A DNA stretch of 63,538 nucleotides, the filler included, from Conidiobolus incongruus B7586 (taxonomy: Eukaryota): the NCBI GenBank assembly GCA_000697335.1. It is 7 parts of 7 records of this genome, joined end to end, with 100 filler letters (N's around TTAATTAATTAA, not from the genome) between each part and the next. Parts side by side here need not be neighbours in the genome. Positions count along the whole stretch, not along the records: positions 18,084 to 35,487 come from JNEM01006331.1; 6 more parts are not named here. The stretch is one strand, 5' to 3'. Shown here in pieces: positions 2,326 to 61,959 of the stretch. Positions within the stretch are counted from its first letter, which is position 1, and each line of letters starts with the position of its first letter. The position numbers and the translations under genes were made by a program. Under the pieces are notes generated by a model that ran no database searches, was not told the DNA's origin, and saw only the letters and a list, made by a program, of their open reading frames with translations.

Positions 2326-4544
2326 ATGGGACAAAAAGAAGTTCCCAAACGTATTTTAAAAAAGGAAAAAAACCTTAAAAAATTTGAAGAACCTAACTTA
2401 TCCAACTTATTTCAAAACTCCAACTTGATTCATTTAGATGATGTGAGTGATGTAGAGTCCGAAGCGAGTTACGAAGGAGAGGAAGTGACCAAGAGTTGGG
2501 AGAAGAAGGGTGTTAAATCTGATATTAAAGAGAGTAATAAACCCGGGAAATTGCCTATCAAGTTGAAGGATGGTACTCTAGTCAAAGTGCAAGCTGATGA
2601 AGAGAGCGAAAAAGAAGAAGAATCCGAAGAAGAAGAAGCAGAAGAATCTATAGCAGAAACATCCAATGAAAAACCAAAACAATTGGGCAAAGATCGTCTT
2701 CAATTACCATCAGTTACAGATCCCAATTTTTTAATTCAAGTTCAGGAAGAAATAGCAAAATTGAGTTTGAAAATTATATCTAATCCCGAAGAGAAGGTAA
2801 TATTAATATTAATATCAATCATAATTAATAAATTTTTAATCAAATTTAGTATAATTTGTTAAACGATTTGAAAAAATTGTATAAGCATAAACATCCCAAA
2901 GTGAGACATTTAAGTTTTATCGCTAGTTTGGCTATTTTTGTCGATATTTTACCCAGGTAACAATCATTATTATCAACAATCTAAACTATTGCTAAAACTA
3001 CACAGTTATCGCATTCGTCCACTAACTCAGGAGGAGCAATCTGTAAAGGTGAGTAAAGAAGTAAAACGCCAGAGGGATTACGAGCAAACATTGCTATCGC
3101 AGTACCAATCCTATCTCACTAGTCTCCAACGCGAATTCCAATCGGATGACAGTCCTTTAGGCCCAACAATTGTACACTGTTTTGCGAATCTCGTTAGCAA
3201 GATGGGGCATTTTAATTTCTTCGAATATATTTTAGAATTTGTGGGTCGTCGTCTCATGAGCAAGAAACTTGACGACTGTTACCAAAAGTGTTGGGATGGT
3301 ACCAAACAATTATTCGAGGAGGATAAATTGGGAGAAAATAGTTTGTTAATGACTCAAACTTTATTAAGACTTATGAAAAACAAAAATTATAATATTCCCA
3401 AACAGACTATTGAATTATTGGGGTACTTGAATTTGAATTTGTCAATTTCTTCAAAAGTTGATGAGCTTACTCAAACCAAGGAGGACAGCAAACCCATAAA
3501 GAATGGTAAAAAGAATAAAAGAGTATTGGCGGAATTGAGCCAGCACGTGAGCAAAAAGCAGAAAAAGAAGCAAAAGATCGACAAGGAGTTGAGGGATGAA
3601 CTCAGAGAAGCCGAAGCAGAATACACTCGCGAAGAAGTGTCAAAATTCCAATCGGAAACCCTCAAAGCCGTATTTATTATTTACTTCAGAATTTTGAAGA
3701 CTGATCCACCAAGCCCTCTTATCCCCAGTGTCCTCGATGGTCTCATCAATTTTGCTCACCTTATCAATGTGGATCTCTTCCCCGATCTTTTCCCATACTT
3801 GAAATCCCTTCTGTACAAGGAGATCCCCTCAACATCTCATTCACTCCACCCCAAGTTGGATTACTTAAACAACCGATTAAAATGTATTCACTGCTGCTTC
3901 AAATTGTTGAATGACGAAATTGTCGGCCTCAACTTAGATCTCAAACCTTTTTACGACGAATTGTACCGCATCTTAATGACCATGACAACGTTTGGAGGTG
4001 GCGGCTATGATGATTTGAGTACTGAAATTGGTGATCATTTCATTCAATGCTTAAACGTAGCATTTATCGAATGTGTCAAGGTAATTTTAAAAGCATGCTT
4101 TTTGAATTAGTCACTAATTGTGTTAAATAGACATCCAATGTTAGAGCCATGGCATTCCTAAAACGTTTGAGTACCATAAGTTTCCAATTGGAAGAACCTT
4201 TACTCATCAAACTTTTACAATTTTTGAAACAATTTATCATCGTAAATTTTATCCTGAATCATATTAATAATATACTAACACTCCATAGAAATATCCTCAA
4301 ACCCTACCCTTATTCCACAACAATGGCGAAATTTTGGGTGATGGTAAATACTTATCAGAGGCTGAAGATCCCGATCTTAGCAATCCCGTTAGTGCTACTG
4401 TTGCTGAGCTGGTCATTCTTCAGGTATGTTGATTCAAAAGAGTTTTACAATGGTATTAATTTAGTGATTTAGAATCATTTCAGTCCCAAGGTTTCCCAAC
4501 AGGTTAGAGAATTATTTAAAATAGCTAAACGTATCAATCAATAG
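2326..4544 (+). CDS. NOC3: Nucleolar complex protein 3 (Noc3/CBF-Mak21 family), 6 exons (~2326-2796, 2850-2956, 3006-4080, 4131-4241, 4289-4423, 4473-4544)
   Basis: The spliced product contains KLPIK, FVDILPSYRIRPLT (Noc3 DIIPGYRIRPL motif), HFNF, YFRILK, FAHLINVD and a C-terminal DPDLSNP. GT-AG introns of ~50 nt join the listed ORFs in frame. Confidence 0.93.
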
Positions 4545-4787
4545 ACACTATATAGATTTAAATTTGAAATTATTTTTAATTTTTAATAAATCAGAAAATA
4601 TATCAAAAAATAATATCCACTATACTTTCATGTGATTTTAATGTCCCTCAATTGAATTTAATTTTAATATATGATAAATAATTAATAATTAGGAATTAGG
4701 AATTAGTTTTGTTTAATTTAATTTAAAATAATATAATATAGTAAAAAATTATTAACCAATACAACACAACGAATTATTAAAACATCA

Positions 4788-5969
4788 ATAGAGTATCCAA
4801 CTGACTAAACCCTCCTCTCAAGTCCCTATCCCATTATTAACTAACCCATGGCTAATCAATTGGGTAGCTGGGTCTTTGGCAGGTGTTGGTGAAATTGCTG
4901 TAGGTCCACCCTCTAGACACTCTCAAAGTAAATATTTTGCTTAAGTTTTTGTATATTATTAATAAACTTTAGGCTAGAGTTCAAACTCAAGCTCAAAAGT
5001 GCTTGTATACTCAAATGACATTAAATATAATAAAAAAAATTAACAAGTAATCAATAACAAATAAATTGAGAATGCAATTAATTGAAAATAGGTATTAGAT
5101 TTCTATAAAGGGAGTTTACCAGCCATAATGAATAGTAGTCTATGTTCTGCAGTACTATTTACAACTTTTGGTAGTTGTCAAAAATTTTGTACAACAAAAT
5201 TTTCAACTTATTTCAATTTGTAATAAGTTTATATTTTAAAATATTTGAGTTTGTATTAATAATTAGGTTTTAGACCAAAATTTTTTAGCTGGAAGTATAA
5301 CAGGGATAGTAATGGGATCGTTTATTACACCTTTGGATAGGGCTAAACTTTTATTACAAACCAATACCCAAGTATTTTTAAATTCCAATATACCTAAACT
5401 CAGACTAATATTTTTATAGCGACGCGGTGGACGTCTCACAACCCAACTATTGACTCCAGCGAGAACGGATGGTATCAGAGGTGTTTTCAAAGGTTTAGCA
5501 ATTACTCTGGTTAGAGATATGCCGGGTTATGGTGTCTACTTTGGCAACTAATCTATTTTTATAAAATATTGAATTGAAATTAATTAAATTTAGGTGTTTA
5601 TCATTATTTTAGAACTTAATGTATAAAATATTATGGTTCTGAAGATAAATTACCAATCTGGGCACAAATGAATGTAGGGGGAGCAACTGGGATGGTGTCC
5701 TGGTTCTTTAGTTATCCTATGGATGTAGTCAAATCTAGGATTCAATCTACCAATACGTAATACCCAAGAATCCAATATTTCATAATTTACTAACCGCTTG
5801 TATTAGCATAACCACCAAAATCCTACCCGATATCCTGAAAATCTGGCACGAAACATCACCCAAAGGCCAAAACTTTTTCAAAGGAGTGAGTATTACATTG
5901 GTTTGAGCGTTTCCAGTGAATGCTATGAGTTTTACAATATATGAAATTGTGAAAAAATTAATTTCTTAA
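4788..5969 (+). pseudogene. Mitochondrial carrier (SLC25, carnitine/ornithine/YMC-like) pseudogene
   Basis: Three carrier repeats are visible: AGSLAGVGEIAVG-HPLDTLK, FLAGSITG..ITPLDRAK and SYPMDVVKSRIQ, plus GVFKGLAITLVRDMPGYGVYF and FFKGVSITLV*AFPVNA. Lesions: ATAGAGT where ATG AGT is expected (~4788), an extra C before HPLD (~4907), an apparently missing GT donor (~5549) and an in-frame TGA at 5904-5906. Confidence 0.85.
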
Positions 5970-6048
5970 ATAGAAAAAAAAAGTTCATTAAACAATAAAA
6001 TAAATTTAAATTTCAACCTAGGATTGATTATTAAAGAATTTTTGTTTA

Positions 6049-8147
6049 TTAAATTTGTAAATATTCTACATAACTAAAACTTAAAACTATTACACTCATA
6101 CCTAATTTTAATTATTAGTTATAATTTATAAATCAATAATAAACTTACAAATGACCATTAAAGGTTTCTCCCTAAAGAAATTCCAGCTGGGGCTGTGTGA
6201 AACCCAAGGGTCTGGAACGAGTGGCAATGTATGTAAATTGTGTTCAGAATCCATCAAAACTATATAAATTAGTAAGAGTTAATGGAATATTAGAGGGTTG
6301 AAATTACCTAGTTTAGACTTTTTATCACTCTCAAAAATACTAAATCCTACAATTGTCTTCAACTAATAAATTTTATAAGATATTAATACAATATAATATT
6401 TACATGATTAATGTCCCGCAATCTCAATTCTAAACTCAATTCCCACTTGACAGATTCGGTTCTACCTCCTCCAAGTTTGGATCTTTTGAACCCCTGATTC
6501 GTTATAGTATCTTCCAATATACGTCTGTCGTATATCCTCAATCTATCTGATGTCGTAAGGATAAACAAATGGTCACCTGTCATGTCCATGCCAACAAATT
6601 TGGGTTGATCCCCAAGCGATATGAAATCGTCATCATCATAGTGGTCAGGATCATAATAAGGGTCTGCAGAGTCGTAGTGATACGAAAAATCGTTAAACGT
6701 ACGTAACTGTATGAAGTTATCAGTATTTCCAACTCTAAAAAAAATTAATATAATCATTGAAAGAATCGAAAGAGGGAATTACCTGGTTGCAAATCGATCC
6801 AATATATCGTAACGATTAAAATAAACGTTAAATTTGTGATTGGTTAGATTTACTGTTGCTACCGCAATGTCTAAACCTACTAGGTTTACTAGATAGTTGC
6901 CTCCCCTAACTTCTCCTTTATTAATTATATTACTATGAAAATTTTTTGAAATTTACCAAATATTGGTTTAGCTGACATTCTCACACTCGGACCTCGAGAT
7001 CTTGGATGGATCCCTAATGAAGTTTGTCTCCTGGTGAAATGATGATGGCTGTGATATAATAAATCCTAAATGGAATGGTTAATTTCAATAAAATTGAGGT
7101 AAGATAACTTACATAAGATTTAGTATCTTCAGTCCAATCTCCATTAATATCCAATTTTAAATCCACAATGTCGTAATGCATTCCAGTTTCTTGATCCTGA
7201 CGTATTTGTGCTTTTATGAAATTGACACGATTTGTAACACTTTAGGAATAAATTAATTATACAATTTGAGTGAGAAGGGGGACTTACTTGTCTTGATAAT
7301 AATCGTAAAATTGATATGTCTTCCTAGGTATCGAATAGCCTTTGAAATATTGTACCAAATTAGATTGTTGATCCAACAATGGTCCTGACTTCAGAAGAAT
7401 TCTGCCTTTAGAATTAAAAAGTTCGGTAATACTTATATATTCAAACTCTAGATCTGATCCCCATCTAAAATAGTTTAATTTGATAGTTTCTTTATATTAT
7501 GATGTATTACCTTTTCAAAATAACAAAATTTTCAGATAACCAAAAATCTTCAATATGCAAATTTCCTTGAATTTCAACAGTTTTAAACTCGAATTTGGGT
7601 GCTTGTTCAATTGTATCGTGAATTAAGCGCAATATGGTCAATTTCCAAGTGACTCTTTCACTCAATCTATTCACAGAATAAGTCAAAAGTACTGATAATC
7701 CCAAGGGATACTGAGGACAAGGTTTTAGTTGTTGAACATTGAACAATTGACCATCAAGTGTCGTAAATGGAACAAATGATGACCATTTTGGTCGCCTTGA
7801 TGGGGTAAAATAATCGTATTGGAAAATTTGAAACCCAACTAAAAAATTATTCAATATAAAAGATATGATAAGATAGTTTGATTACCTTCAGTATTTTGTC
7901 CATCATTCTCAATTAATTCACCAATATCTATTTTATAGCAATATTGAAATCTACATACAAGTTGATTCCATTCTCCTGTTATTCTATCATGATTAAAATA
8001 AGGATGAAAATTGGAATTTTTTAAAGAATTTAACAATATGGTATCTGTGGAGATTGTGAATAGAGTGTTGGGAATATAAATCAGGGAGATGAAGTATATG
8101 AAGACGAAGCCGCTGACGATTAGGAGAAGTGCATTTTTTTTGCCCAT
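6049..8147 (-). CDS. Multi-exon hypothetical protein with an N-terminal signal anchor and a C-terminal hydrophobic segment
   Basis: ORFs 7851-8147, 7507-7854 and 6383-6757 and short intervening exons are bounded by GT-AG introns. It starts MGKKNALLLIVSGFVFIYFISLIYI and ends ...MVICMSVIVLSFSYVEYLQI*. No family recognised. Confidence 0.7.
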
Positions 8148-9899: not shown

Positions 9900-9999
9900 N
9901 NNNNNNNNNNNNNNNNNNNNNNNNNNNNNNNNNNNNNNNNNNNTTAATTAATTAANNNNNNNNNNNNNNNNNNNNNNNNNNNNNNNNNNNNNNNNNNNN
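9900..9999. other. Assembly gap with artificial six-frame-stop linker (also at 17984-18083, 35488-35587, 50075-50174, 56931-57030, 62384-62483)
   Basis: An identical N-run/TTAATTAATTAA/N-run block of 100 nt occurs six times. Confidence 0.97.
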
Positions 10000-10725
10000 A
10001 ATTTTAACTTAATTTAATAATTTGATTTATGTTTTAATAAAGGATTATATATAAAAATCTAACATTCATCAATTATAGTTATTTAATATTAAAACTTAAG
10101 TTTCTAGTAATGTTTTAATAAAGTTTATTTAACAATAGCTGTTTTAATTTTTTTAAACTTTAGTTAAATTATAAGGTATTTATTTTATATTTTTATTTAT
10201 TAAGTTTAAGCTTTAATATATATAAAATACTTGCAAAACTAATATTAAAATATTTAAATAATTTTTTGATTAAATTAAAAAAATATTTTTTAATATATTT
10301 TTTCATTCTATTAATTATTAAAAAAATAACAATTGAAGTTAGTTTTTTAAATTTTAACAAGTTTTAATTAATTTCTCTTTTAGCTTTAAAATTGTTTTCC
10401 TAATAAAAAATAGTTGATCTAAATAATACTTGATTATTAAAAACTACTTATAAATTTTAAATAATTTTAAAGGGTTTATATTTAAGTTTTACTAATATTA
10501 AAATAAAAAACCTCTAATAATCACTATTTAGTTTAAACATAATTAAATTAAACAAGTAATTTTAAAGAGTTAATTTTTTAATCAAAATATTTATAATATA
10601 TATATATATATAATTTAAAAATATATAATTTCTTATTTACTTTATATATTTATTCATTTAAAACTAATAATATGTTTGAAAAATTAAATATTAAAAAATT
10701 TCCCATTACTTCAAATTTAAGGTAA
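10000..10725 (-). mobile_element. Degenerate mariner transposon, 5' half with left TIR
   Basis: The reverse complement aligns with 62537-63210. It includes the first catalytic-D region (ATA ATT GAT GAA TGT TAG ATT TTT ATA TAT AAT CCT) and the terminus TA|TTACCTTAAATTTGAAGTAATGGGAAATTTTT. Confidence 0.75.
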
Positions 10726-16558: not shown

Positions 16559-17324
16559 TTAAAATTTTATTAAATATTATTATTATTATATATTCTAATT
16601 TATTAATAATCATTACCTTGAGTCTTCTAACAATTTTCACCAACTTTCTTTTGAATTATGGTTTTAAATACTCAATTTTCAAATTACAATTTTATTTAAT
16701 TTAAAAACAATTTTTTTATTAAAATTTTATATCTTTATTAGATCAAGGTTATTATATATATATATATATATATATATAGGTTTAGATTAAAATACAAGGA
16801 AGAGTTAAATTTGATTAATTTTTTGTATTTATCCATGTTATTTTTCATTTAGATAAAGTTTAATGCTGCAAAACTTGATATAATTAATTACAAATTATAT
16901 CTTATTTTTATTTTTAACATTATTTAAATTTTGTTGAATTCCTTTGATATAAATATATTTATTTTTACTTAGTTATAATTATTTCTAGTTTTATCCAATT
17001 GATATAAAATGAGGAAATTTATTTCAACTAATATTAAAATCTAAATTAATATAAATAATAAATAATGTGATAATTTAAAATTGACAAAATGTATCCATTT
17101 GGTAAAATAAATGTTTAAATTATAATATATAGTTAGATATATTAAATTGGATCAAAAACTTTCTATCATTTTAAAGTATATTAATTTATTACTAATATAA
17201 ATAATAATATTGAATAAGACAAAGATTTTTGATACATCGAATAGAAAATAGATTATTCATGTCAATAAAATTTAATATTATAAATTGCATTATTTAATAT
17301 GATCCAAAAACTTTTAAAAATATA

Positions 17325-17983
17325 TTAGTATAGAAATTAAATAATAGCATAATTGTAAAATCAAAATTAAATAAAAATTTTAATATGATTTATAAAATAT
17401 ATTACAAAATATAAAGTTAATACTCACTTCTATTTTTGATTATTTTTTGCAATACTTTTGGCAAACTTCAAACACTTGAAAAATAATTTTTTTATTAAAG
17501 ACTGAAATTAATATTTTATGAACTAATTTAATTTATTTGCAAGAATGTTTTTCCTGCAAGTATATTTTTTAATTACCTAAAACAATTATAATCACATGGA
17601 TTATAGTCAGGTGAATATACTAGATATGGTAGTTCTTTCCAGTTTTTTATATAGAATATTTTTTATAAGTTTAACTTTATATATTTTATAATTATCTTGC
17701 AAAATAATAGATATTTTTAATTTATATTAAAAACACCATTTAGAAATTATTTTATTTAATAAATATTATAAAATCTACTATTTACTGTTTTTGTTTTAAA
17801 AAATTAAATAAAAAACTATATATTATTATAATATTTTATAATAATTAATATTTTCTTATTAATAAAATATTTTTTCACTATAATTTATAAACAAGATTAT
17901 TTTAATTCAATTTAATATTTTGTTTTAATATAGGTTAATAATTAAATAAAAAGATCTAAAATCTATCAATTATTATAATTTAT
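17325..17983 (-). mobile_element. Degenerate mariner transposon, 3' half with right TIR
   Basis: The minus strand reads NWKELPYLVYSPDYNPCDYNCFR*LKNILAGK and is colinear with 35100-35487. Terminus TA|TTAGTATAGAAATTAAATAATAGCATAATT. Confidence 0.8.
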
Positions 17984-20900
17984 NNNNNNNNNNNNNNNNN
18001 NNNNNNNNNNNNNNNNNNNNNNNNNNNTTAATTAATTAANNNNNNNNNNNNNNNNNNNNNNNNNNNNNNNNNNNNNNNNNNNNTAATTAAACTTTGAATA
18101 TTAGATTATTTTAATAAAAATGTCTTTTTAATTCATTAAATATTATATTTTAATCTTAAATTTTATTTAATATTCTTTTTAAATAATTTCAAAATTTCAT
18201 AATAAGTATTATATTTAATGAAAAATATTTTATTAAATTTAATTATATAAAGATCTGAGATATTTTTCTTTTTAACTTAATACTACAAATAATAAAAAGT
18301 TTTTAATAAATTTATTTTAAACCAAAAGCAAATGCTATTTATTAATCATAATATATATATTAATAATATTTATATTATTAATAATAGATATGATCTATAT
18401 ATTTAGTATTTAGATATTTTATTATTTATTAATAATAATATCAAATTATATTTCAAAAACTAATTTTATTAAAATTTAAATTATTTTTAAAATAATTACA
18501 ATAGAATTAATATATAAAAATTTTATTGTTATTAATTGAATTGATTAATAATAAATAACAATTATATATGAATGTATAAACTTGTTCTTATTTTAATCAA
18601 GTTAAACCATCAGATTTTAGTTAGTATTTTTGATATTCAAAGGATGTAAATCAAGAATAATTAAGAGTAATATTAATAAAGAGATTAATATTTTATTAAA
18701 TAAAATTATTTTAATGAAAATATTAAAATTGATTAAAACTTTTTTAACACCTTATTAGAAATGGATACTGTGCTTCAATCGATATTATATTTTTTATATA
18801 TATTAGAGCTATATAGCACAATATTAACTCAACTTCTAATAAAAAAATCAATGATATTGATTTATTATTGCATTTAAATTCTAATTATAATCCATATACC
18901 ATTCAAAGCCATATGATTTTATGTTTTGTGTATATTGTATAGGTGTTGTGTTTTTTAATATGTTTTTTTTCAATAAAGACGGTTGTTAGAAAAGTACTAG
19001 TAATACGATTTAGTAAATTATTTATTAATCTTATTTTCTTAAATCTTACTTACTGGTGAGATGTCGTAGCATAATACCCAGAAAAATTAGAATCCCTTTC
19101 TATCCTTATCACTTCTGGCTTAAAATAATTTATTCAGTGAGTGATATATAATTTGGATAAATTCTAATAAAAGGAAGTATCGAACATCATTTGATTATGG
19201 ACTAAAAAATTCACTATAAATAGGAAGTAATATGGACTAAACTACCGAATCGAGACAGACAGGTGTTTTTGAAATATATCAATAGGGAAATATTGAATTG
19301 AAAAATATTTTTGCATAGTGATAATATTTTAAAATTGAATTGATTAACCAAAAAATATAATTCACTTTTAATACATAATCAATACAAGAGTTATATAGGA
19401 TTTACTCAAAAATATTAAACTTCATTGGGCAAAATCAGATATTTTTGAATAAAGTTAGAATAATTCACAAAGTCAAGTATATTCTGACATGTGTTTCATT
19501 TGTGCTTGCAGTTGATAAATCCCTCTCACTCCCTGATGTGTTCATGTCATTTTTTATATTCTTTGGATAGAGTACAATACTTTTAAAAAATATATACTCA
19601 AATTATATATATTTTGAAATAGTTATAAAAAATATGAAAATAATGACAATTGAGAGGCAGAATTCATATTAATATTGGTGAAATCAAAATTATATAAAAC
19701 AATTACAATTAAATTACTTGAAAATATTCAAAGCAAGAAAACTGTGTCAATTGTTTTGTAAAAAAGTACCAATTAAACTTTTTAATTTTAATCGAATTAT
19801 TGGTTTAAAGAATCAGTATCTCTGGATTTCATTACAACTGGATATTCTTCAAATTTGGTAAGTGTTTAGCGATAAAAAAACTCTACATTATCATTTTCAT
19901 TGTCTTATTGAGTTCAACTCTTCTTTCACATCAAAATTTCTATTATATAGTCACAAATTTAAATGAGTTTAAACCAAGGTATATTTTATTACAGCAATAA
20001 GATGGAATGATACTTTAATTATAAAAATTAAATCAATTTGAAGATACTATAAAAATAGTATTAATGGTCAATTATGTAATAAAAATGAATAATTTTCATT
20101 TTCAAATTACTTATAATTAATTAGAAAAAAATTAAAATTTTTTAATTATATATTTCATATTTATATTTAATTTTGGAATGATATATTAATTACAGTTGAT
20201 AAATTATTATAATTCTTAAAATAATATATAATTTATATGATCTAATCTGGATTATTCAATTTTTTCAATGAAATATTGATTAATAAATAAATTAGCTTCA
20301 ATTAAAACTCATTATTGAATAAAGTTATATACACAAAAGCATATTTTAATTATTGTACTATTATCAAAATTTAAATATTTTGAATTATCCTTATATTCAA
20401 GAATAAGATAGCATTAAATAAAGAAACATTTATGTATTGATAAGTCGATATTTGTTCTATATGATTTTTTAAAAATATATTAAATAATATATTACTTCAA
20501 GGGTTAATTCTAATTATTAATATCAAATTATTCCAAATTATACTCTATTTAATATAATTTCAAGTGCATTATTCTTACTTACCTAATTCAGATTAGCAAA
20601 TGAAATTATATGAATTTTAATATGAATGATCTGTTAAATATTTGAATATCAACTTACTCTTCTAAATATAAATCTAATTTTATCATTTGTTAGATGATGT
20701 TCAAAATCAATGATATTTTAAAATATTATATGAGTTCTAAAAAATAGACATTATCCCTTATTATATACTTTAATTGAAAATTTATAACTGTAATAATAAA
20801 TGTATTTTTGATAATGAATACATGATTAAACAACATACAAATAAAAATTAAATTCAAATTTATCAAACATTCAAAGTAATAAATAGATCAATTTATTCCT

Positions 20901-24189: not shown

Positions 24190-24261
24190 CTCCGATACAG
24201 GGAATCGAACCCTGGCCGTCTCGGTGAAAGCGAGAAATCCTAACCACTGGACCATATCGGA
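24190..24261 (-). tRNA. tRNA-Glu (anticodon TTC)
   Basis: TCCGATA/TATCGGA acceptor stem, TCTCG-CTTTCAC-CGAGA anticodon arm, GGTTCGATTCC T arm and a T6 Pol III terminator ~11 nt downstream. Confidence 0.96.
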
Positions 24262-24271
24262 CTAGGAAAAA

Positions 24272-24803
24272 TTCGACAATTACTACCTGATTGACACCTT
24301 TTTTCACTCCAATTACTTCCCAGTTCCTGATTAACCAAGTTAGGCCTTATTAGCTTTTTCCTGGTTCACGTCCGAGTGACTTCACTGTTGCTCAATTGTT
24401 ACATACTAATGCCTGTATATTTCACTTATAAGAAGTGCTGGTTTCCTCCTTTTTGATTTCTGTCTTTCTTTACCTTTCTCCTTTTTTACACAAATAAATC
24501 TTTTGCCTATTTCCAAGGCCTTACCTTTAGTATATTCAAGCAGTTGCCTATAGTCCACTTGAGTCATCTTCCATTATTCATTCTTCATTTGTTCCTATTC
24601 ATATTTTGTGATTCCATATTTTTAACATGTCGGATCCTAAGGCCACAACTGTTGCTGTTGGTCTAGTCGCTCTTTACAATTCCCTATTTACAAGTGATCA
24701 TTGGTATTTTACCCCAGCTTGTAAGTGCCATGCTTCAAAATCTGCCTACAGAATGGCTGTGTCAATGTCCTCAATGACGCTCCAAGCGCTAATAGCCGTG
24801 ATA
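24272..24803 (+). mobile_element. Solo LTR (family T), 10 bp upstream of tRNA-Glu
   Basis: Colinear with the reverse complement of 53050-53607 along its whole length. TATAAG at 24427, a pyrimidine tract, AATAAA at 24493, end CCGTGATA (GTGACA in the other copy). Flanks are AAAAA/AAAGA. Confidence 0.8.
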
Positions 24804-25229
24804 AAAGACTAACATTATCGTTTAATCATGAAAAATACTATTCATTTCAACTTTAATCCATATTAACTAACAAATACAAACTTCTTAATTTCGAAATTAT
24901 TTTAAACTATTTTGAATTGTACTATTAACATTCAATTACAGCCAAATTCAAGTTTTAATTGTTCATTCAAATTTATTACTGTTTAATCAATTTGTTTTAG
25001 ATGCTAAAATTTGTTTACATTATTTCGTTAAATATTTAAATTAACAAATAAATAATGTAAAGAATTATAGACAAATTTTAACTGTGTATTGTTATTTTTA
25101 AAATTACATATATTATTGTTATTATTATTATAAAAGATGGAGAGATGAATATATTAAAATACTGATTTTATAGTGATGGAATATTTATATTTTGGTCGGA
25201 TTCATTGATTATTACAGGGAAGGTGAGAG

Positions 25230-33900: not shown

Positions 33901-34498
33901 TATATACTAATCAAAAAAATTAAAATAATACTAATAATAGCCAATATATATCAGTTTAATATATATAATATTTTGTAATAAATTATTTCATGAAAAAATA
34001 GTTAAGAATAAATGAATTTTAATTTTATATAGAGTAGATATTAAATTATAGACTATATTATAGAATTATTAACTTGAATGATTTTGAATAATGATAAAGT
34101 TTATATCAAAATATTTATACTCAAAATCCTTGATAAAAAAAGTAGAAATAATATTGATATTTATTATTAATTAATATAAAAGGCAAAGAAATTATAAAAA
34201 TTAAATCAGATTAACTAAACTAGTTCAATAAATAAATTACTCTATCGTTTTCTTATTTTAAAATGTTATTTCCTTTATCTTGCAAATTATAATTGTATTT
34301 TATATTATTTTAGTATTATATTAGTTTTATAATTCTGAATAAAATTAAACCAACTTATAATTTATAATTATTAAATTAAATATATGTAAAAAAATCATAT
34401 CTTTAAAATAAATATTTTGATAACTAAGATTTTATTATAATTTAGCTCAAAAATTTAAAATTCAAAATATAACTTTTTTAAAAATTTATAATAATATT

Positions 34499-34874
34499 TG
34501 TTAAAAGACTAGTTCTCTAAATTCTTACATATATTCATTTATAATTCAATTGACTATAAATTATATAACTAATTTATACTTTTATAAGTAAATTAACTTT
34601 ATTAATAGCATTGAAATATTTAATAAACAAGGTTCCTCTTTTTTCTTTTAATTTTTATAATCTAATTTTTTTATATTATTTCTTAGGTTAAAACTATATT
34701 ATATTAATATTATAGCATATTAGCACTACCTGATATAAATCCTAATATACTAGTGACTCATTTGTGTTTGAAGCTTAATTAAACTTTGTTTACATTTCCA
34801 TATTATATTGCCACATTATTTTAATATTAAGTCTTCCTTTATATTATTTTGGTATTATTACCATTATACTGATA
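34499..34874 (+). mobile_element. Solo LTR (Gypsy family G)
   Basis: Starts TGTTAAAAGACTAGTTCTCTAAA and is homologous to the copies at 46764, 49448, 57118 and 61960. Flanks are ATATT/ATATC. Confidence 0.8.
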
Positions 34875-35099
34875 ATATCTTTGATAATTTGATTAAAATT
34901 AAATTTAAAAATCAATTCATTTCTTTGAAATATATTGGTTTCTAATAGCAAATATTATTTGAGCATTATTTATTTTGTTTTAAATATTAATCAACAAAAT
35001 TAAACTATTTAATATTAAGTTTTTTAATTTATCCACTATTTTTCTTATTTCCAATTAAAGTAATATTATCAATTTAATATAGTTTTCAAATGTTATTTA

Positions 35100-35487
35100 T
35101 TAGTGCAGAAATTAAGTAATGGCACAATTTTAAAATTAAAATTAAACAAATAAATTAATAAATAATATATAAAAATTAATGAATAATATAAAATTAATAG
35201 CCTCCTTTATTATTAATAACTCTTTTCTATACTTTTGGTAAGCTTCTAATACCTAAAAAACAGTTCTTTTTATTAAGGACTGAAATTTGATGTTTCACAA
35301 ACCAATTTAATTTGTTTGTAGGAATTTTTTTTCCTGCAAGCTGTTTTTTTAATTGTCTAAAACAATTATAATCATATAGATTATAATCAGGTGAATATAC
35401 TAGATGTGGTAACTCCCCCCAATTTTTTTTATATAAAAAATCTTTTACAGCTTTAGCTTTATGTATTTTGCAATTATCATGCAAAAT
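35100..35487 (-). mobile_element. Mariner (DD34D) transposase C-terminal fragment with right TIR, cut by a gap
   Basis: LHDNCKIHKAK...ELPHLVYSPDYNLYDYNCF has 34 residues between the second and third Asp. Terminus TA|TTAGTGCAGAAATTAAGTAATGGCACAATTTT. Confidence 0.88.
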
Positions 35488-38400
35488 NNNNNNNNNNNNN
35501 NNNNNNNNNNNNNNNNNNNNNNNNNNNNNNNTTAATTAATTAANNNNNNNNNNNNNNNNNNNNNNNNNNNNNNNNNNNNNNNNNNNNGTTATCATTATTT
35601 AATCTTCAAATTAAACTGAATTATTAATAAATTTTATAATATTTTTTTAAATATAAAATTCTTTTAATATAATTTATCAATAATTATTACTCTATCAGAT
35701 AAATATAAAATATATATAAAGTTATAACAAATTTTGGAATTTTAAATGATAAGATAAATTACCTGATTTAATATATTCAATAGATTATAGCATATAATTA
35801 TAATTACTTTAGGTAATTAAAAAAATCAATTTTTATGAAAGAAAATTTTCATAAACAAATTTAATTGGTTGATAAAATATTAAATTTCGATTTAAAGAAT
35901 TGTTGTTGATTGTTAAAGGTTTGCTAAAAATATAAGAAAGCGTGATTAATAATAAAAGAGAGAGTTGATTTTGTATTATAAATTTATTTTTCAACTTATA
36001 TATTAAAATCTCTTTTCTTTTCTAATCTTGAAAAATCCTTATTATTTAAAAAATTTAAGTAAAAATTGGGTTATTCAAAATATAGTTTGAAAGATTTTAT
36101 AGTTAATTTAAATAATATCATCAAAATTAAATGTAAATTAGGTGAAATAATTAGCGTTATCAAATAAAAATCAAATTTTTTCAAATTTGAAAATCTACTA
36201 TCATATTTCAAAAGTTATAAATTATATAAAATTAATTTAAATAGCTGTACCAATCATTGATTATTATAGACTATTTATTAAATATATAAAAATATATTTT
36301 CCCTAAATGTGGTAATATCCAATAATTTATCTTAATTGAACTTTATTGTATAACTTTTTTTCCCAATATTATTCGATAATATAAATTTTCTGATCTCATA
36401 TATATTGTATTTTTAAATTTACTCAACCTATTTAAATATAAAATCGATCAATGATGTGTTGAAAATTATATATTAAGTCTGAGATGCAATGCCTCATCCA
36501 ATAACATAAATATGCTCCTTTAGCAATTGAATTTCAAAGTATCTATGAATTAATATTCTTAAAATATATCTTAAATTTGATTGAATACAAATGATTTCAT
36601 AATTACAAAATTAAGTTGAACCTGATCTATTTGCAAAATATCGATCAGCTCAATGCAAAAAATTCGATTGAAATGGAAATCATTAATATCCCAAATGGGT
36701 TTTTAATTGAAATTAAATTAGGATTAATAAAAGTTGATTGGTCCCACACCAAAATTGACTTTACTTCTTTATATAGATTATCTATTTACTAAATTTGTAA
36801 ATATCAAATATATTTGAATTATACAGTGTTTAAATTAAAATTAAGGTAGTATAGCTGAATTTAATGATATATATATTTATTAAAGATATTATATAACATC
36901 TATAAATCGACTCTGGTATTTTCCTATATTCCTCTATATCTCAGATTTATTAATATCTCAAACTTAATAAAACATTAACAATTTAATATGTTTAAAATTA
37001 TTAGTTAAATTGTAATATTCACCTCATCAAATTTTTAATTAATAATTTTCGATCGTTACTAATTTTTAGGATCGCCCAAAATGAAAACCATTTATTAGGT
37101 TTAATCGTAATTAAAGAAGATTTAAATATGGAATTTATCCTCATTTATGCTTTGATTAGAAACTAATCTCAAAATTATAGAAATAATTAAATTACTCATT
37201 TACCTTTGTTAGAGAAAAGCCTCTTAACAGTTTGCTGAACCTAGTCAGAGTCATTACTTTTTAATCGAAATTATATTTATTTTAAGACTTTATATTATAT
37301 AGTATACCAAAATAGTTTTTTCATATTAAAATAATATTCTAATAATTGAAACAATTAATTTAAATTCATTTTATCATTCTTATGTCATTTATCTACTTTA
37401 TTTTAATCCTCAAAATAACTCTAATTCCTTGATAAATTTAATAATCCAATTAACCAACTGAATCAAAAATAACAAATATTTAAAATTAATTTAATATCAA
37501 CTTTACAGCAATAATGTTCAACATTCATTATTAATAGGAACTGTTTTGGATTACTTTAATTAGTACTTCAAATTAATCAAAATATATGAATGATTTTTAT
37601 AATCAACAGTTCTTTATTATAAGATATTTAGTTAAATAAAAATCATCATAATTTTGATATATTTCACAATATATCATGTTTGCTAAAAGCATTCGAGTAT
37701 ATCACAATATTATCATTGTTCATAAATATAATAATAAAATTGAATATGTAAAAATACTTAGTATACTAAAGATCATCCCAGATTTTCAATTTAACAACAA
37801 TAAAACAGTTTGGAATACTTGATTTTTTAAGCTTTCAAAGCCCCAAGAATAACTTTGGATAAAAAATCTAATGACGTAGTATCTGGAAAAATAATTAACA
37901 ATGAACTTGAAATATATTCTGCAATGAATAATTTTACTAATTTAATAACAAATGATAGCTAGAGTGATTTGAGTAAAGAGCTGAAAGCACCATATTCACA
38001 TCATATTATTACCAAATTGTAAAATTAAATACATTATCCTCAATCAATATAATATGGATAGATAGACTATCAAAAATAAAATATATTTGAAATTATTTCA
38101 AACTAAATATTTCTAATATGCAAGCATTAAATATTGTGATAAATATTAAATAAATAATAATAATATATAACCGCAAAATATTTTGAGATATATCGGTTAT
38201 CAATATTATATTCTAATAACATATCAAAGCAACGTATAAACATAAATCAATATTAGTTTGATAAGTTACAATTTCAAATTATCAAATTTGAATCAAGAGA
38301 TCAATATAATCAATTTAGATCGAAAACAAATATAAAATATTTAAATATATGAAATATTTCTACATTTTAATACCCGATACAACGGTTGGAGCCCTAAAAG

Positions 38401-44800: not shown

Positions 44801-46763
44801 CTTAAATCACTTTATTTCAATGGCAAAAGTAATTAGAGTTTAATATCTTAGATTTTTAAACCATTATCAATTGGCCTAAACTTATAAAATTCCAAGAAAT
44901 AATTCAGATAAAAAATTTTATTCCCTTTGCCCCTTTTTGAACTTAAAATTTTATACCCTCCCATTTGAACAATTGAATAGAATATACCTGAATTTTATTG
45001 GATAATAAAAAAATTTTTTTAATATGAAAATTATAATTAATTAAAAGGGTTTTATAATTTAATTTTTTTTCGATCAATTGATTCAAATTAATTTTATATG
45101 AAATTATATGAGACAAATACTAAATTGAATTAATATTAAAATTAAACAAAATTTCTCAAATCAAACTATATTGAAAGAGTGAAGTTTATTGACTTAATAC
45201 TATCTCAAATATAGTTATTGAATATACAGTACTTATAAGTAAAACATATATTATAGAGCCCCAAAATTAATATTGCTGACCACAATGCAGTACAAGTGGT
45301 CAAAGAAGAGAATATATTTTTTCATTGGATTCATAACTTGTTTGGTAAAAGAGATAATTGACAAAAGGATTTTAATTGGCAATAGAATAATCAAGAAATC
45401 TAATAGTTTATCGATTTAGTATTTGATCATAATTTTCGATTTAGTTTTGCTAGAATTTTAATTTGAATCAGTTGATTTAATTTAGAATTGCTGTTATTTA
45501 TTGGTTTATTATTCAGTTATTATTTTAGTTAATTTGAATTATTACCTAATTTTTTGATTGAATCAATTTTTGAAATTGTTTTCAGACATTTTATGAATCT
45601 GTATCAGTGTATTTTAATATTTTCTCTAAGTATTACAATGAGATTTCAAATAAACCTTTAGTTATTATTGAATCAAATCCCAAGCTCAATTGAAAATTTA
45701 TTTTTTATTTTTTTTTCAATATCAAGTTTGTTTATTTTTAATATAATATAATTTAATAATATTAATAAAATTAATAATTTAACTATTATAGTTTGTTGAT
45801 AATAATAAGACCAAATATTATTGGATTATAAACAATTTGCTTTATTCACTCTATTCTTTGCAATATCTAAGCGACATTTTAACTTTCGTTTATTTAAGTT
45901 TTATTATATAAATATAGTTCTAGTATTTCCAATTAAATTCAAAATAAACAATTTTCGAATAGATTCATATTAAATAATCAATTCATTACACTCCCTTCAG
46001 ATAAATTATATAAAAAAATTTTTCTATTATTCAAGAATAGAACTAATGATTCTTAATTATTCATAAATATTAAATATTCAAAGTTAGTCACTCTACTTTA
46101 ATTATATAGTAGTAAAAAAATTATGAACAGTAGATAAAAGTTATTTTGGTCATAAATATTATAAAATCGCCTAACTTTATTCTAGTGTAGTATAGTGAAT
46201 TAATCCAAGCATTCTATCGATATTTGGACATAAATAAATTTAATAAGACCAAATATGTATATATGTCAAAAATTACAAAATTTCTTATATTATAAAGGAT
46301 ATTAGTTTATATATATATTTCAAAAATTAATATAAATTATTATATTAAAAAAATAAAAGTCAATTAATATGTTTTATATAATTAACCTAATTTAATTAAT
46401 TTTTAATTGAAAATAATATAAAAACAATTATTTATGAAAATAATAAATAAAAATATTATAATATTTGAAAAGTATTTTTATAAAAGATTATATTCAATAT
46501 ATTGATATTTAAAATATATATTTAGAAATAATATTAATTTTAATCAGACTTTCAAAATATTATAAATTTTTTATTAAAAATCCATACTATATATAAAATA
46601 AAATTTAAATTAATAATTTATTTAATTAATAAATATTATTATATTTTGATAATAAAATATTATTCATATAATTACAAATTATTTGTTATTTTTATAATTT
46701 AGTATATATTATCAAAAAATTTAATATTTTATTAAAATTATTTTTTATCTAATTATAAGATTA

Positions 46764-49447
46764 TATTAAAAGACTAGTTCTCTAAATTTTTATATATATT
46801 TTCCTATAATTTAATTAACTATAAATTATATGATTAATTTATACTTTTATAACTAAATTAATTATATAAATAATATTAAATTATCTAATAAATTAGGTTC
46901 TTCTTTTTTTCTGTCAATTCTTACTATTTTTTATCTTTTTCACTATTTCTATGATTGAGACTATATCTTAGTAGTATTATAGTATATTAGCACTACCTAA
47001 TATAAATCTTAATATATCAGTGACTCATCCCAGTTTGAAGCTTAATTAAATGTTATTTACATTTATACACTATAGCTATATTATAATATTATATTTTATG
47101 TTATATTATTTTTATATTATTTTTATATTAAATTTTCCTCTATATTATATTAGTATTTACCACTATATTTATATAGTAATAGTAATAAAATTATTAAAAA
47201 CTATTTGAAATTAATAATTACCTATATTAAATTTATTTATTATTATTTTAAATCCTATTTATAACTTATTTTATTTTAATTTAATATTATACATTATAAT
47301 ATCTCTAAAAAAAGAAATACCCTTATATTATTTTAATAATAATAATAGCTTAATTACTAAGTGAATCTAAGACTTTAGTCTTTAAAAGCTTATTACCCTC
47401 TAAAAAACTAATATTAAATAACTTTTGGTTAAGAAAAACATAGCTTCAAAAGTTTAAATCTAACAAACCAGTTATTTCATTACAGTTAATATATTAAACT
47501 ACCTTTTTAATATTTTTAAAAACAAATTAACCATTTATAATAGATTTAAAAACTTTTATAAGCTTGAAAACTATCTTAAAAATATAAAAAATGCCTTAAT
47601 TTAATTCCTGATGAAGATTTAAAAAATATCCTTAAATTAGTTATTTTTTTAGAAAAACTTATTTATACTCAGTATTTAACTTATTACAAGCTTAATCCTA
47701 AAGAGTTTTTAGGGGGATAACTTATTATAAGTATATAAACCTTTAAATAATTGGAAAAAGTTATAAAAAAAAGGTATTATTTAAAAGATTAAGTTTAATT
47801 AACAAGAGAAAAGCTTTCTTAACTTAAATAAAAAACTTTTATAAAATAATTGATTGAGAAATTCAATAAGATATATTTAAATATATTAAATATCACTAAA
47901 GAAGAATAAATCCACAACCTATTATAATATCTTAACTTTTAAATAAAACTTTAATTAATTAGCAAGGAATATATTGATAATATGTTTTTCTCTAATATTT
48001 ATAATATAACAATTATAATTGATAATATCTTTTACTCTATAACTAAATTTTTTATCTTAAGGATTACTCTTTTAAAATTTATTTTAACCCACTTAAATCT
48101 TAAATGATAAAAGTTTTTGCTTTAAAGCTTTATAAAAAAATTATTAATAAAAAAGTTAAAGCTTATTTAAAAATAAATAAAGGTTGTTATTATAGCTAAA
48201 GGATATAAATTAATTATAAAATTGATAAGTATCTTCTCAAAAGGTAATATCTATTTAATTTTCAATAATCTTAATTTACCAACTATAAATTAAACTTGAA
48301 TAATATTAATATCACCTTAAAATTACCTCTTTCATAATTAATTAACAGATTTTAATTTAATCCACAAAAATTTTAATAAACTAATGATTCTACAAATTAA
48401 ATTATTTATACTAAAAAGATTTAATTAATTAAACTACTAGAAACTAAAAATATTTTAGTAACTAATTTACCTTGTAATTTTTTACCTTTAACTATCACCT
48501 TGTTATTTTTTTTAACTAGATATTTTATAGATATACTTGTTAATATATTAATTAACTTTAGTTGTTTTAGTTATATTATCTCTTCTTTTATTGTTATAGA
48601 ATTATCTTTAGTTATTTAAAAAAACAGCTTAATAATTAAATATGCTAATAATTTAATAAAATAAACATTTAATATTATATCTAAATATTTATTATTATTT
48701 TTTAATTACTCTTAATATATTCAATTCATAATTAGTAATATAAGTTATAATTTTATACTAGGTTAAAATTAGTTTAAATATTATAGTTTTTTATCTATAA
48801 ATATTATTATAAAAGGTTACAAATCTATTTTTTTTATATTTTAAAAGAAATTAATAGAATTAATCTTAAAAAATTTATATTACCTTATTATAAAACTATC
48901 AAATATTTTATTTAATACTAAATTTATAATTATCTCAAATAATGTTATTATTGTAAGTAAAAACAAATATAAAAAACTAATTAAAAACCTTAATAATTTA
49001 TAAAGATATATATTTGTTTATTATTTATCTATTAATACTTTATTTGTTAATTTCAATAAAGTTATAACTAATAACTATTTCTTATATAATAAAGTAAGTT
49101 AATTTATTAATGTTTTTAAACTTCTAAGTAAATTACCTTTAAAACATAATATTAAATATAAAATTTAACTTCTCTTAAGTATACAACTATATTTAAAGTT
49201 TTTTTATCATTTATCTCTAAAATAATATCAAACTTTAAAAGAAGAAATCTAAAAATTATTTGAAAATGAATATATTAAACCTTCTTCCTTACTATAAAAA
49301 TCTCTTATTTTCTTTGTGTAAAAGGATAATGATAGTTAAAAATAATATATATATAATTGTGTTTTAAAGTCTAAAACTGTTAAGGATAAAACTTTATTAT
49401 TAAACCTATATGATATTAAAGATAAAATATTTAAATCTATTATATTC
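46764..49447 (+). mobile_element. Highly degenerate Ty3/Gypsy LTR retrotransposon (family G): 5' LTR 46764-47173, eroded PBS, gag-pol remnant up to the start of RT
   Basis: The LTR is homologous to other G copies and is followed by TAGTAATAGTA (eroded TGGTAGCAGCA). 49200-49430 reads YHLSLK*YQTLKEEI*KLFENEYIKPSSLL*KSLIFFV*KDNDS*K..YNCVLKSKTVKDKTLL, matching the Gypsy RT start (I.PS.SPW.SP.FFV.K.DG..R.C.DYR.LN..T.KD..PLP). Confidence 0.85.
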
Positions 49448-52965: not shown

Positions 52966-53039
52966 TGCTCCCAACAGGGATCAAACCTGTGACCTTGGCG
53001 TTATTAGCACCACGCTCTAACCAACTGAGCTATGGGAGC
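52966..53039 (-). tRNA. tRNA-Ile (anticodon AAT), with a T-loop C56T variant
   Basis: GCTCCCA/TGGGAGC acceptor stem, TAGCTCAGTTGGTTAGAGC D arm, TGGTG-CTAATAA-CGCCA anticodon arm, T loop TTTGATC and an immediately following T5 terminator. Confidence 0.92.
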
Positions 53040-53049
53040 CTATTTGAAT

Positions 53050-53607
53050 TGTCACGACTATTAGCTCTTGCAGCGTCATCTAGGACACTGACACAGCCAT
53101 TCTGTAGGCCAGATTGTGAAACATGACACCTACCAGCTGGGGAAAACAACCGATGATCAGGTCTCTGGCTATTTGGCCTTGATCACTTGTAAATAGGGCT
53201 TTGTAAAGAGTGACTAGACCAGCAGCAACAGTGGTGGCGTTGGGATCCGACATGCTAATAAGATGGAATTGAGGAATATTAATAGGAATGAACTTAGAAA
53301 GAATAGTGTAAAATGACTCAAGTGGGACTATAGGCAGTTACTTGAGTATACCAAAAGGGCTGGTTTTGGAAGTAGGCAAAAGTTTTATTTGTGTAAAAAA
53401 GTAATGTAAGAGAGTGAGATCAAGAGGAGGAGACAAATCCTTCTTATAACTAAGTGAAATATATAGGCATAAGTATGCAATAGCTGAGTAACAGTGAGGT
53501 CACTCTGATATAGACTGGTAAAAGTTGATGAGGCTTAGTTTGGTTAATCAGGTACTTAGTAGTGAATTGGAGTGAGGAAAGGCATCAATTAGGTAGTAAT
53601 TGCCATG
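53050..53607 (-). mobile_element. Solo LTR (family T), 10 bp upstream of tRNA-Ile
   Basis: Homologous to 24272-24803 in the opposite orientation, with TGTCAC at 53050 and a perfect flanking TGAAT duplication at 53045-53049 and 53608-53612. Confidence 0.82.
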
Positions 53608-54520
53608 TGAATAATTTAATAAAACAAGAATACTTATAGATTTTAAGATAATTTATTACAAACAATAATATTTCTCATCATAATCTACTTTATTTTAATA
53701 CCAATTTGTTTCATTTCCATTTTATATTACATTCATAATATTTTAAAAATTTTAATTTTTTTTCAATTCTATTAATCTAACTTATTAATTTTATACATGA
53801 AAAATTTTAAATTATATTTATATAATATTAAATTTCTGGTTAATCTATTTATTCACAAATTTTTGAAATCTATAAAATCAAATATTTCAAAATTTAAACT
53901 CATAAAAATTCTGATTTTGCATAATACTATATATTATGTAAAAGTAATTATTTTATTCATAGATTTTTATATTATAGCTTGAAAAACAACATGCTAAGTA
54001 TTAAATCTAAAAAAAAATGACAAAAATCAAACATACATTATAATTTAGTTAGAAAAGATAATTCCTTATTTAAAATGGCTCGTATGCTGCTCAAATATAT
54101 ACTGAACAAAATTATTATAATTGAATATATTATCAACTGACGAAAATCTTAAAAAATAATTTGAAAAATATTCTTATTTAGTATAATGTTATTGATTTTC
54201 TCAATTTCTAGAATTATATCAACAATCCACAATTTTAATGTACAAGAGAACGAAGTAATATAAAGAATATAAGTTTATGGAAAATTTCATTCTAGTTATT
54301 ATTAAACAATAGTACTGTTAGATATATCATAATAATTCTCATAAACTGTCCATTATAAACGAATTGATTTTATATGATTATATTCATTGATTACGACTTC
54401 ATATTCAAACTGTCAGTTTGTTGACGAGTTAGATAATCTGCAAATTGATAGTCATTTCACAATAATATAAAAGAATTGGTTAAAAGCTTTAAATCACTTA
54501 TTTTGAATCTAAATCTGGCC

Positions 54521-56930: not shown

Positions 56931-57030
56931 NNNNNNNNNNNNNNNNNNNNNNNNNNNNNNNNNNNNNNNNNNNNTTAATTAATTAANNNNNNNNNNNNNN
57001 NNNNNNNNNNNNNNNNNNNNNNNNNNNNNN

Positions 57031-61900: not shown

Positions 61901-61959
61901 TTTAAATATATTATAAAATTTGAAGAATTAATTCTATATGATATATAAGGGAATTAATA

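What the first reader, a model, noticed from the sequence alone, without database searches (positions are those of the whole stretch)
24190..24808. tRNA-gene-targeted LTR retrotransposon: solo LTRs exactly 10 bp upstream of two different tRNA genes
Seen: both tRNA genes found in the window (Glu 24190-24261, Ile 52966-53039) have the same ~530-560 bp element (24272-24803 and 53050-53607) exactly 10 nt 5' of the mature tRNA. The spacers are CTAGGAAAAA and CTATTTGAAT. The two copies point in opposite orientations relative to their tRNA and carry 5-bp flanking duplications (perfect TGAAT/TGAAT; AAAAA/AAAGA). The tRNAs and outer flanks are unrelated, so these are independent insertions rather than a segmental duplication. 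Established: yeast Ty3 integrates at Pol III start sites via TFIIIB/TFIIIC, and Dictyostelium DGLT-A inserts closely upstream of tRNA genes. Inference: this is a position-specific, orientation-independent Pol III-targeting retroelement in an apparently early-diverging fungus. I do not know of one described there. One terminus is non-canonical in both copies (TT.., CA..), so that boundary rests on the TSDs.
Basis: partly seen in the sequence, partly recalled or inferred. Interest (0 to 1): 0.9.

Follow-up and report, generated by a model that had tools for sequence, protein, structure and literature searches.

The report
Solo LTRs aimed at fungal tRNAs
Two copies of an abundant 550-base repeat, likely leftover ends of a retrotransposon, sit about ten bases in front of both tRNA genes in this stretch of a Conidiobolus-like fungus, which likely extends the tRNA-aiming habit known from yeasts and social amoebae to an early-branching fungal lineage.

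Summary
Observation confirmed. The window's only two tRNA genes (Glu, Ile) each have a copy of one ~550-bp element just upstream, in opposite orientations (82% identical, unrelated flanks, 5-bp flanking duplications). There is no third copy in the window. Contigs of the source-like runs show a high-copy family with sharp ends and a TGTC terminus. A host protein is 85% identical to Conidiobolus coronatus.

Best reading: decayed solo LTRs of a retrotransposon that integrates at Pol III start sites, as Ty3, Tj1 and DGLT-A do (0.68). Targeting is well supported (about 0.88). Ty3/gypsy membership is untested, because no genome was held and no gag-pol was found.

Caveats: one end is ambiguous by 2 nt, so the spacers may be 10 and 12 with a 7-bp duplication. 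One diverged copy shows no sign of a neighbouring tRNA.

New detail: a 68-codon ORF starts inside the element and runs out of its end. It may be a gag start but has no homologue.

My searches found no printed report for Zoopagomycota. This scan has noted the same habit before in other early-diverging fungi. New member of a known kind.

The parts
24190..24261 (-). tRNA-Glu(TTC) gene, intact T-loop/B box, T6 run 10 nt downstream; target 1
24267..24271 (.). tRNA-proximal copy of the 5-bp target-site duplication (AAAAA), positions -6 to -10 of the mature tRNA
24272..24803 (+). element copy e1 (putative solo LTR), pointing away from the tRNA; non-canonical end faces the tRNA (start 24274 under the 7-bp reading)
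24416..24498 (+). TATA-like motifs (24416-24432) and AATAAA (24493-24498), kept in e2; putative U3 promoter and poly(A) signal (motif resemblance only)
24627..24803 (+). ATG-started ORF inside e1; a 26-nt deletion between TGATCA repeats plus a 1-nt deletion keep the end in frame; it runs out of the element and stops in the flank at 24810-24812
24804..24808 (.). distal copy of the duplication (AAAGA)
52966..53039 (-). tRNA-Ile(AAT) gene, T5 run directly downstream, C-to-T change at the normally invariant T-loop C (B box); target 2
53045..53049 (.). tRNA-proximal copy of the duplication (TGAAT), positions -6 to -10
53050..53607 (-). element copy e2 (putative solo LTR), pointing towards the tRNA; canonical TGTCAC end faces the tRNA (other end 53605 under the 7-bp reading)
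53050..53253 (-). 68-codon ORF from ATG to the element's last base; the single stop (codon 58) is private to e2, most family depth reads a sense codon there
53608..53612 (.). distal copy of the duplication (TGAAT)

Best explanation
Both tRNA genes in the window have a copy of one abundant ~550-bp repeat about 10 bp upstream, in opposite orientations, and these are likely decayed solo LTRs of a retrotransposon whose integrase is likely guided to RNA polymerase III start sites by the host's TFIIIB/TFIIIC, as in yeast Ty3. Shown: the two insertions, their geometry, the flanking duplications, the multi-copy family with sharp ends, and the host lineage. Inferred: a full-length element integrated with a 5-bp staggered cut at -6 to -10 of the mature tRNA in either direction; LTR-LTR recombination then removed the interior; the remnants decayed, with CpG loss. 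Insertion there leaves the internal A and B boxes intact, so it is a safe site. The ORF inside the element is likely the first 68 codons of the element's own gag-type gene.
For: 2 of 2 tRNA genes are occupied and 2 of 2 copies are at tRNAs; chance 2e-7 to 8e-6. The tRNAs differ and the flanks are unrelated. 5-bp duplications match at 9 of 10 positions; 356 contigs (X1) and 322 (X2) lie on e2. Summed depth is 170-6,600 and 950-43,000 at places inside the element against 11 and 38 in the unique flank. Single contigs reach about 40 times the depth of e2's own contig (657 vs 15.8; 3,557 vs 88.5; a rough guide, not a copy number). 14 and 15 loose ends at the TGTC end carry heterogeneous flanks (agreement 0.53-0.54) with a TGTC start. 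TGTCA..TGACA ends and 5-bp TSDs are those of Tj1-type elements. Distance matches Tj1 (5-11 bp), Tca8 (6-30 bp) and Dp_DGLT-A.3 (10-11 bp, LTR 563 bp). Either orientation is as in Ty3 and DGLT-A. CpG o/e is 0.44 and 0.24 against 0.82 and 0.58 in two host genes. The ORF part is GC-richer (45-49% vs 35%) and better conserved (154/177 vs 271/347), and the 3 ORF sites polymorphic at intermediate share are all third codon positions.
Against: No full-length element, PBS, PPT, RT or integrase was seen. The internal ORF has no credible homologue. One end is non-canonical in both copies and differs between them (TT vs CA); a 7-bp duplication fits about as well and would be atypical for an LTR element (recalled). 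One 1,904-nt contig at single-copy depth spans a whole diverged copy with about 195 and 1,170 nt of unbroken flank, so an intact multi-copy tRNA gene is probably not beside it (records 1/7). Between e1 and e2 the ORF differs at 3 synonymous and 10 non-synonymous codons of 44 compared, so there is no constraint signal at that level. Only two sites could be measured, and X1/X2 are one sample, possibly the assembly's source.
Confidence: 0.68

Rival explanations
1. It is a tRNA-start-targeted mobile element but not a solo LTR: a non-autonomous DNA transposon or an internally deleted element with TG..CA ends and a 7-bp target duplication, whose ORF is the stump of a transposase or other gene.
For: Shifting one end by 2 nt gives TG..CA-like ends in both copies and 7-bp duplications with 11 of 14 matches (P 1.6e-3). 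The ORF has no gag homologue. Dada shows that DNA transposons with 6-7-bp TSDs can target tRNA genes.
Against: The ends share at most 4 of 5 bases as an inverted repeat. Dada inserts inside RNA genes at conserved sequences, whereas these sites are upstream and share no sequence. The 5-bp reading puts both cuts at the same -6 to -10 position. A contig at about twice single-copy depth ends 7 letters past 53602, which fits an end at 53607 slightly better than 53605 (record 5/10; weak inference).
Confidence: 0.17
2. It is a solo LTR family with only a loose preference for open, AT-rich or tRNA-proximal DNA, and the two tight placements are a selected coincidence or one targeted subfamily among untargeted ones.
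For: The family is abundant, and one diverged copy lacks signs of a neighbouring multi-copy tRNA. The window was picked from a very large scan. DGLT-A families differ in targeting within one genome.
Against: 2 of 2 and 2 of 2 at 10-12 nt has chance 8e-6 or less. No untargeted copy lies in the remaining 62 kb.
Confidence: 0.11
3. It is a host tRNA-flanking repeat or a segmental duplication, or the tRNA is part of the mobile unit (SINE- or Helenus-like).
For: The element abuts a tRNA gene in both cases, and both tRNAs have TAG at -3 to -1.
Against: The tRNAs differ, lie outside the duplications and face opposite ends of the element; homology stops sharply at the ends. Family flanks are heterogeneous.
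Confidence: 0.04

Closest known systems
DGLT-A of dictyostelids, especially Dp_DGLT-A.3 of Dictyostelium purpureum (PMC5006619)
   Same: LTR of 563 bp, mostly solo LTRs, 10-11 bp upstream of tRNA genes (2 elements measured there); DGLT-A inserts in either orientation (PMC5911963).
   Different: Amoebozoan host. There a full-length Ty3/gypsy copy is known; here no interior was found. No sequence comparison with DGLT-A was run.
Ty3 / sigma of Saccharomyces cerevisiae (PMC5911963; bioRxiv 2021.07.27.453949)
   Same: 5-bp TSD, narrow window at the Pol III start, both orientations.
   Different: Ty3 lies about 15 bp from the mature 5' end (TSD at -6 to -2 of the TSS); here the TSD is at -10 to -6 of the mature end, which would need a leader of about 4 nt. 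One end here is non-canonical and an ORF starts inside the repeat.
Tj1 of Schizosaccharomyces japonicus (PMC4600332)
   Same: Inserts 5-11 bp upstream of mature tRNA ends, 5-bp TSD, TGTCA terminus (bioRxiv 2022.12.06.519325).
   Different: Tj1 integrates in one orientation only and has a 244-bp LTR; here both orientations and about 550 bp.
beta LTR / Tca8 of Candida albicans (as tabulated in PMC5911963)
   Same: Known mainly as LTR remnants 6-30 bp upstream of tRNA genes.
   Different: Ascomycete host; broader window.

Membership tests
Solo LTR of an LTR retrotransposon | Dispersed multi-copy unit with sharp, shared ends | tested here: met
   (depth falls to the unique level at 53607; heterogeneous flanks at the TGTC end)
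Solo LTR of an LTR retrotransposon | 4-6-bp target-site duplication | tested here: met
   5/5 and 4/5; a 7-bp reading (6/7, 5/7) is not excluded
Solo LTR of an LTR retrotransposon | TG..CA termini with a short inverted repeat | tested here: inconclusive
   One end TGTC in e2 and in the family loose ends; the other end is TT or CA under the 5-bp reading, TG/CG under the 7-bp reading
Solo LTR of an LTR retrotransposon | Same repeat occurs as a pair around gag-pol with PBS and PPT | not testable with these tools
   No genome held; protein and locus searches with the internal ORF were blank
Ty3/gypsy (Metaviridae) | pol order PR-RT-RH-IN and RT/IN phylogeny | not testable with these tools
   No pol sequence recovered
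Ty3/DGLT-A-type Pol III start-site targeting | Insertion within about 5-20 nt upstream of different tRNA genes | tested here: met
   2 of 2 copies, 2 of 2 tRNA genes
Ty3/DGLT-A-type Pol III start-site targeting | Either orientation relative to the tRNA | tested here: met
Ty3/DGLT-A-type Pol III start-site targeting | Most genomic copies at Pol III genes | tested here: inconclusive
   One search gives no flank sequences and may leave out contigs with conserved genes; one spanning contig suggests a copy without an intact tRNA
Ty3/DGLT-A-type Pol III start-site targeting | Integrase contacts TFIIIB (TBP/Brf1) | not testable with these tools
   No integrase sequence; mechanism taken from Ty3
Dada DNA transposons | Insertion at a conserved sequence inside small RNA genes | tested here: not met
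   Both sites are upstream of intact genes and share no sequence; definition
Dada DNA transposons | 6-7-bp TSD | tested here: inconclusive
TRE5 / NLTR non-LTR retrotransposons | One orientation, poly(A) or repeat tail, variable 5' truncation (features recalled) | tested here: not met
   Opposite orientations, no tail, same two ends in both copies
Helenus / tRNA-bearing LTRs | tRNA-like module inside the LTR (as worded in scan notes; paper not read) | tested here: not met
   tRNAs lie outside the duplications; no Rfam match inside the element at E up to 1

The most novel reading that the evidence does not exclude
An independent origin of precise Pol III start-site targeting outside Dikarya, in an element that is not an ordinary Ty3/gypsy. 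Its repeat carries the first 68 codons of an unrecognisable gene (a gag start inside the LTR is what I recall for Ty1/copia) and it has an odd end or a 7-bp duplication. It could be a copia-type retrotransposon or a DNA transposon that has reached Ty3-like precision by its own mechanism.
Probability: 0.15. Interest if true: 0.8.

Novelty: new member of a known kind. Interest (0 to 1): 0.5.

Why it matters
The part of the review table that I saw lists tRNA-start-targeting LTR elements only for ascomycete yeasts and dictyostelid amoebae (PMC5911963). A case in Entomophthoromycotina bears on whether Ty3-like docking on TFIIIB is ancient and shared across fungi and amoebae or was reinvented in each compact genome. 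An integrase from this family could be compared directly with the solved Ty3-TFIIIB interface. The family seems to include a young subfamily of tens of near-identical copies, so an intact element may be recoverable. The behaviour itself is known and the evidence is two sites, which caps the score.

Tried and rejected
No whole genome was held, so the genome-wide distance plot could not be run.

Sequencing runs: no RNA holder listed. Runs X5 and X7 (another organism code) laid 0 of 65,618 and 0 of 41,082 contigs on e2, which is no proof of absence and gave no empty site.

Internal ORF searches: longer proteins, 34 candidates, 0 scored. Near-length, 1 candidate, 0 scored. HMMER over 1.84 billion representatives gave 2 hits, both unrelated repeat proteins, rejected. 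Pfam 0 families. PDB sequences 0. Metagenome contigs 0 of 199 candidates. Viral contigs 1 of 8 at 39% over 36 residues, E 5e-4 among candidates only, judged chance and not followed up. An exact 20-nt pattern in metagenome contigs gave 0. The ESM Atlas gave no answer. The single-sequence model is two helices (pLDDT 80, pTM 0.41) with 0 BFVD matches at E 0.001, so it is uninformative.

Scan notes by sequence and by place were empty.

Segmental duplication, SINE/Helenus, TRE5-like LINE and Dada were considered and rejected (see membership test).

Full report
1. The observation. The window (25% GC) holds two tRNA genes and no other Rfam-detectable Pol III RNA: tRNA-Glu(TTC) 24190-24261(-) and tRNA-Ile(AAT) 52966-53039(-). 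Each has one copy of the same element just upstream: e1 24272-24803 and e2 53050-53607. They align as reverse complements with 425 of 520 aligned positions identical (BLASTN E 2.6e-110; alignment). Both tRNAs are on the minus strand, so the copies point in opposite directions relative to their tRNA. Homology stops at the ends and the outer 150-nt flanks are unrelated. No third copy is found by BLASTN (next best E 0.028) or by a two-copy nhmmer profile. Under uniform insertion into 15-63 kb of target space, the chance that both copies lie within 20-30 nt upstream of the two tRNAs is 2e-7 to 8e-6. This is a post hoc figure and the window came from a large scan, which weakens it but does not remove it.

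2. Boundaries. One end is clear: TGTCAC in e2, decayed to TATCAC in e1. With that end fixed, the best duplications are 5 bp: TGAAT/TGAAT and AAAAA/AAAGA (9 of 10 matches, P 7e-4 at flank composition). Both then lie at -6 to -10 of the mature tRNA. This leaves the other end as TT in e1 and CA in e2. Moving that end 2 nt inward gives TGGCA and CGACA, close to an inverted repeat of TGTCA, with 7-bp duplications matching 6 of 7 and 5 of 7. I cannot separate the two readings with two decayed copies. A contig at about twice single-copy depth ends 7 letters beyond 53602, which needs 2 chance matches under the 5-bp reading and 4 under the 7-bp one (records 5/10; weak). So 'exactly 10 bp' is firm for Ile and 10 or 12 for Glu.

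3. It is an abundant mobile family. No genome was held. Of 7 listed runs, 4 DNA runs of one sample hold the region; they may be the source of the assembly and are not independent support. Laying contigs of 4 of the 7 runs on 53040-53660 at 80% likeness placed 356 of 1,490,999 records (X1) and 322 of 482,767 (X2). Summed depth per bin inside the element was 233-6,596 and 1,195-43,483, against 11 and 38 from 53607 outward. Single contigs reached 657 and 3,557 against 15.8 and 88.5 for e2's own contig, which suggests tens of near-identical copies; the tool warns that depth is not a copy number. At the TGTC end, 14 and 15 loose ends (median 183 and 255 nt) have a consensus ending in TGTCGCGGT with agreement of only 0.53-0.54, so the flanks differ from copy to copy. 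This rules out a two-locus duplication. The output gives no flank sequences, shows only part of its tables, and may leave out contigs that carry conserved genes, so the share of copies next to tRNAs could not be read. One result goes against strict targeting: a 1,904-nt contig at single-copy depth spans a whole diverged copy with about 195 and 1,170 nt of unbroken flank (records 1/7). An intact multi-copy tRNA 10 nt away would probably break such a contig. That copy may be untargeted, or its tRNA lost, decayed or single-copy.

4. Internal anatomy. Read in the e1 plus direction, both copies have TATA-like motifs about 145 nt in, AATAAA about 220 nt in, and an ATG about 355-360 nt in. The ORF runs 68 codons to the last base of e2. 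Its one stop is private to e2: 91-95% of depth reads a sense codon there. In e1 a 26-nt and a 1-nt deletion leave the end in frame. The ORF part is GC-richer (45-49% vs 35%) and better conserved between copies (154/177 vs 271/347). One search showed 40 of 279 variant rows, 14 of them in the ORF. Ten are at 72% share or more (private decay of e2, all codon positions). The other four, at three sites with share 0.34-0.63, are all third positions, three of them synonymous. Against: e1 and e2 differ at 3 synonymous and 10 non-synonymous codons of 44, and a stop-free run of this length has P 0.034 in one shuffled frame. I read it as a likely gag start inside the repeat, at about even odds. No homologue was found, and the two-helix model is uninformative. 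CpG o/e of 0.44 and 0.24 against 0.82 and 0.58 in two host genes fits decay of a methylated repeat. The tRNA-Ile T-loop carries a C-to-T change of the same type, so that gene may have decayed too.

5. Host. The TPR protein at 58834-61440 is 85% identical to a Conidiobolus coronatus protein, 51-52% to Entomophthora and Massospora, and 46% to Neoconidiobolus. The host is a Conidiobolus relative (Entomophthoromycotina, Zoopagomycota).

6. Mechanism. Shown: geometry, duplications, family behaviour. Inferred from Ty3: the integrase docks on TFIIIB and cuts at -6 and -2 of the start site, giving a 5-bp duplication (bioRxiv 2021.07.27.453949, passages); TFIIIC allows both orientations (PMC5911963, passages). 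Applied here, that geometry would put the start about 4 nt upstream of the mature end; this is untested. LTR-LTR recombination leaving a solo LTR is standard (PMC4007536, passages). My odds: targeted mobile element about 0.88; solo LTR with Ty3-like targeting 0.68; Ty3/gypsy by descent about 0.55.

7. Comparison with what is known. Tj1 inserts 5-11 bp upstream of mature tRNA ends, in one orientation, with a 5-bp TSD (PMC4600332, passages); its ends are TGTCA..TGACA (bioRxiv 2022.12.06.519325, passages). Dp_DGLT-A.3 has a 563-bp LTR and lies 10-11 bp upstream (PMC5006619, abstract, section 11 and first part of section 6). Tca8 lies 6-30 bp upstream. Ty3 is given as 0-20 bp upstream (PMC7175516, passages). 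Dada inserts inside RNA genes with 6-7-bp TSDs (PMC3706591, passages) and does not fit. The element works like Ty3 and DGLT-A; membership of Ty3/gypsy could not be tested.

8. Novelty. Searches aimed at this lineage (listings and abstract starts) returned no report of tRNA-targeted LTR elements in Zoopagomycota or Mucoromycota. The Entomophthora genome paper discusses Ty3 abundance, and the 12 of 42 passages shown do not mention targeting (PMC11105155). PMC3783388 held none of my terms. The library lacks most subscription journals and Repbase, and I opened no supplements, so an existing annotation may have been missed. Unchecked notes of this scan describe the same habit in other early-diverging fungi (e1-9986045, e1-8067551, e1-9576397). 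No note matched this element by sequence.

9. Verdict. A real, non-random feature: likely solo LTRs of a Pol III start-site-targeting retrotransposon in a lineage where I found none in print. New member of a known kind; interest 0.5. The internal ORF and the odd end keep a stranger reading open (probability 0.15).

Noticed in passing
window 17314-17982, 35095-36033, 57510-57802, 61631-61851, 63125-63536: Decayed copies (69-78% identical) of a second repeat; the piece at 35230-35487(-) has a weak DDE_3 match (E 1e-4, below cut-off), so likely a Tc1/mariner-type DNA transposon.
   Followed up: partly
window 34338-34878, 46597-47196, 49393-50068, 57064-57572, 61955-62372: Five copies of an AT-rich 400-600-bp repeat (70-88% identical), with a 217-bp tandem duplication at 49469-49902; not near tRNA genes.
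   Followed up: no
window 10003-10626 and 62587-63207: A 630-bp repeat in two inverted copies, 81% identical, each next to an assembly gap.
   Followed up: no
window 56466-56930 (+): ORF running into an assembly gap, no Pfam match; by eye it resembles the start of a LINE ORF1-type protein (recalled resemblance, untested).
   Followed up: partly
window 52966-53039: tRNA-Ile(AAT) has a C-to-T change at the normally invariant T-loop C of the B box, a CpG-type decay beside the element; it may be a weakened or dead copy.
   Followed up: partly
window 24262-24264 and 53040-53042: Both tRNA genes have TAG at -3 to -1 of the mature 5' end; chance or a local start-site motif.
   Followed up: no
window 55515-56039 (-): 175-aa ORF with a hydrophobic N-terminus, His-rich runs and repeated RRH(D/E)GPHD motifs after basic pairs; looks like a secreted, repeat-processed peptide precursor; no Pfam match.
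   Followed up: partly
window 9900-9999, 17984-18083, 35488-35587, 50075-50174, 56931-57030, 62384-62483: Six 100-base assembly gaps, each two runs of 44 N around 12 bases, mostly beside repeats; full-length elements could be collapsed in such gaps.
   Followed up: no
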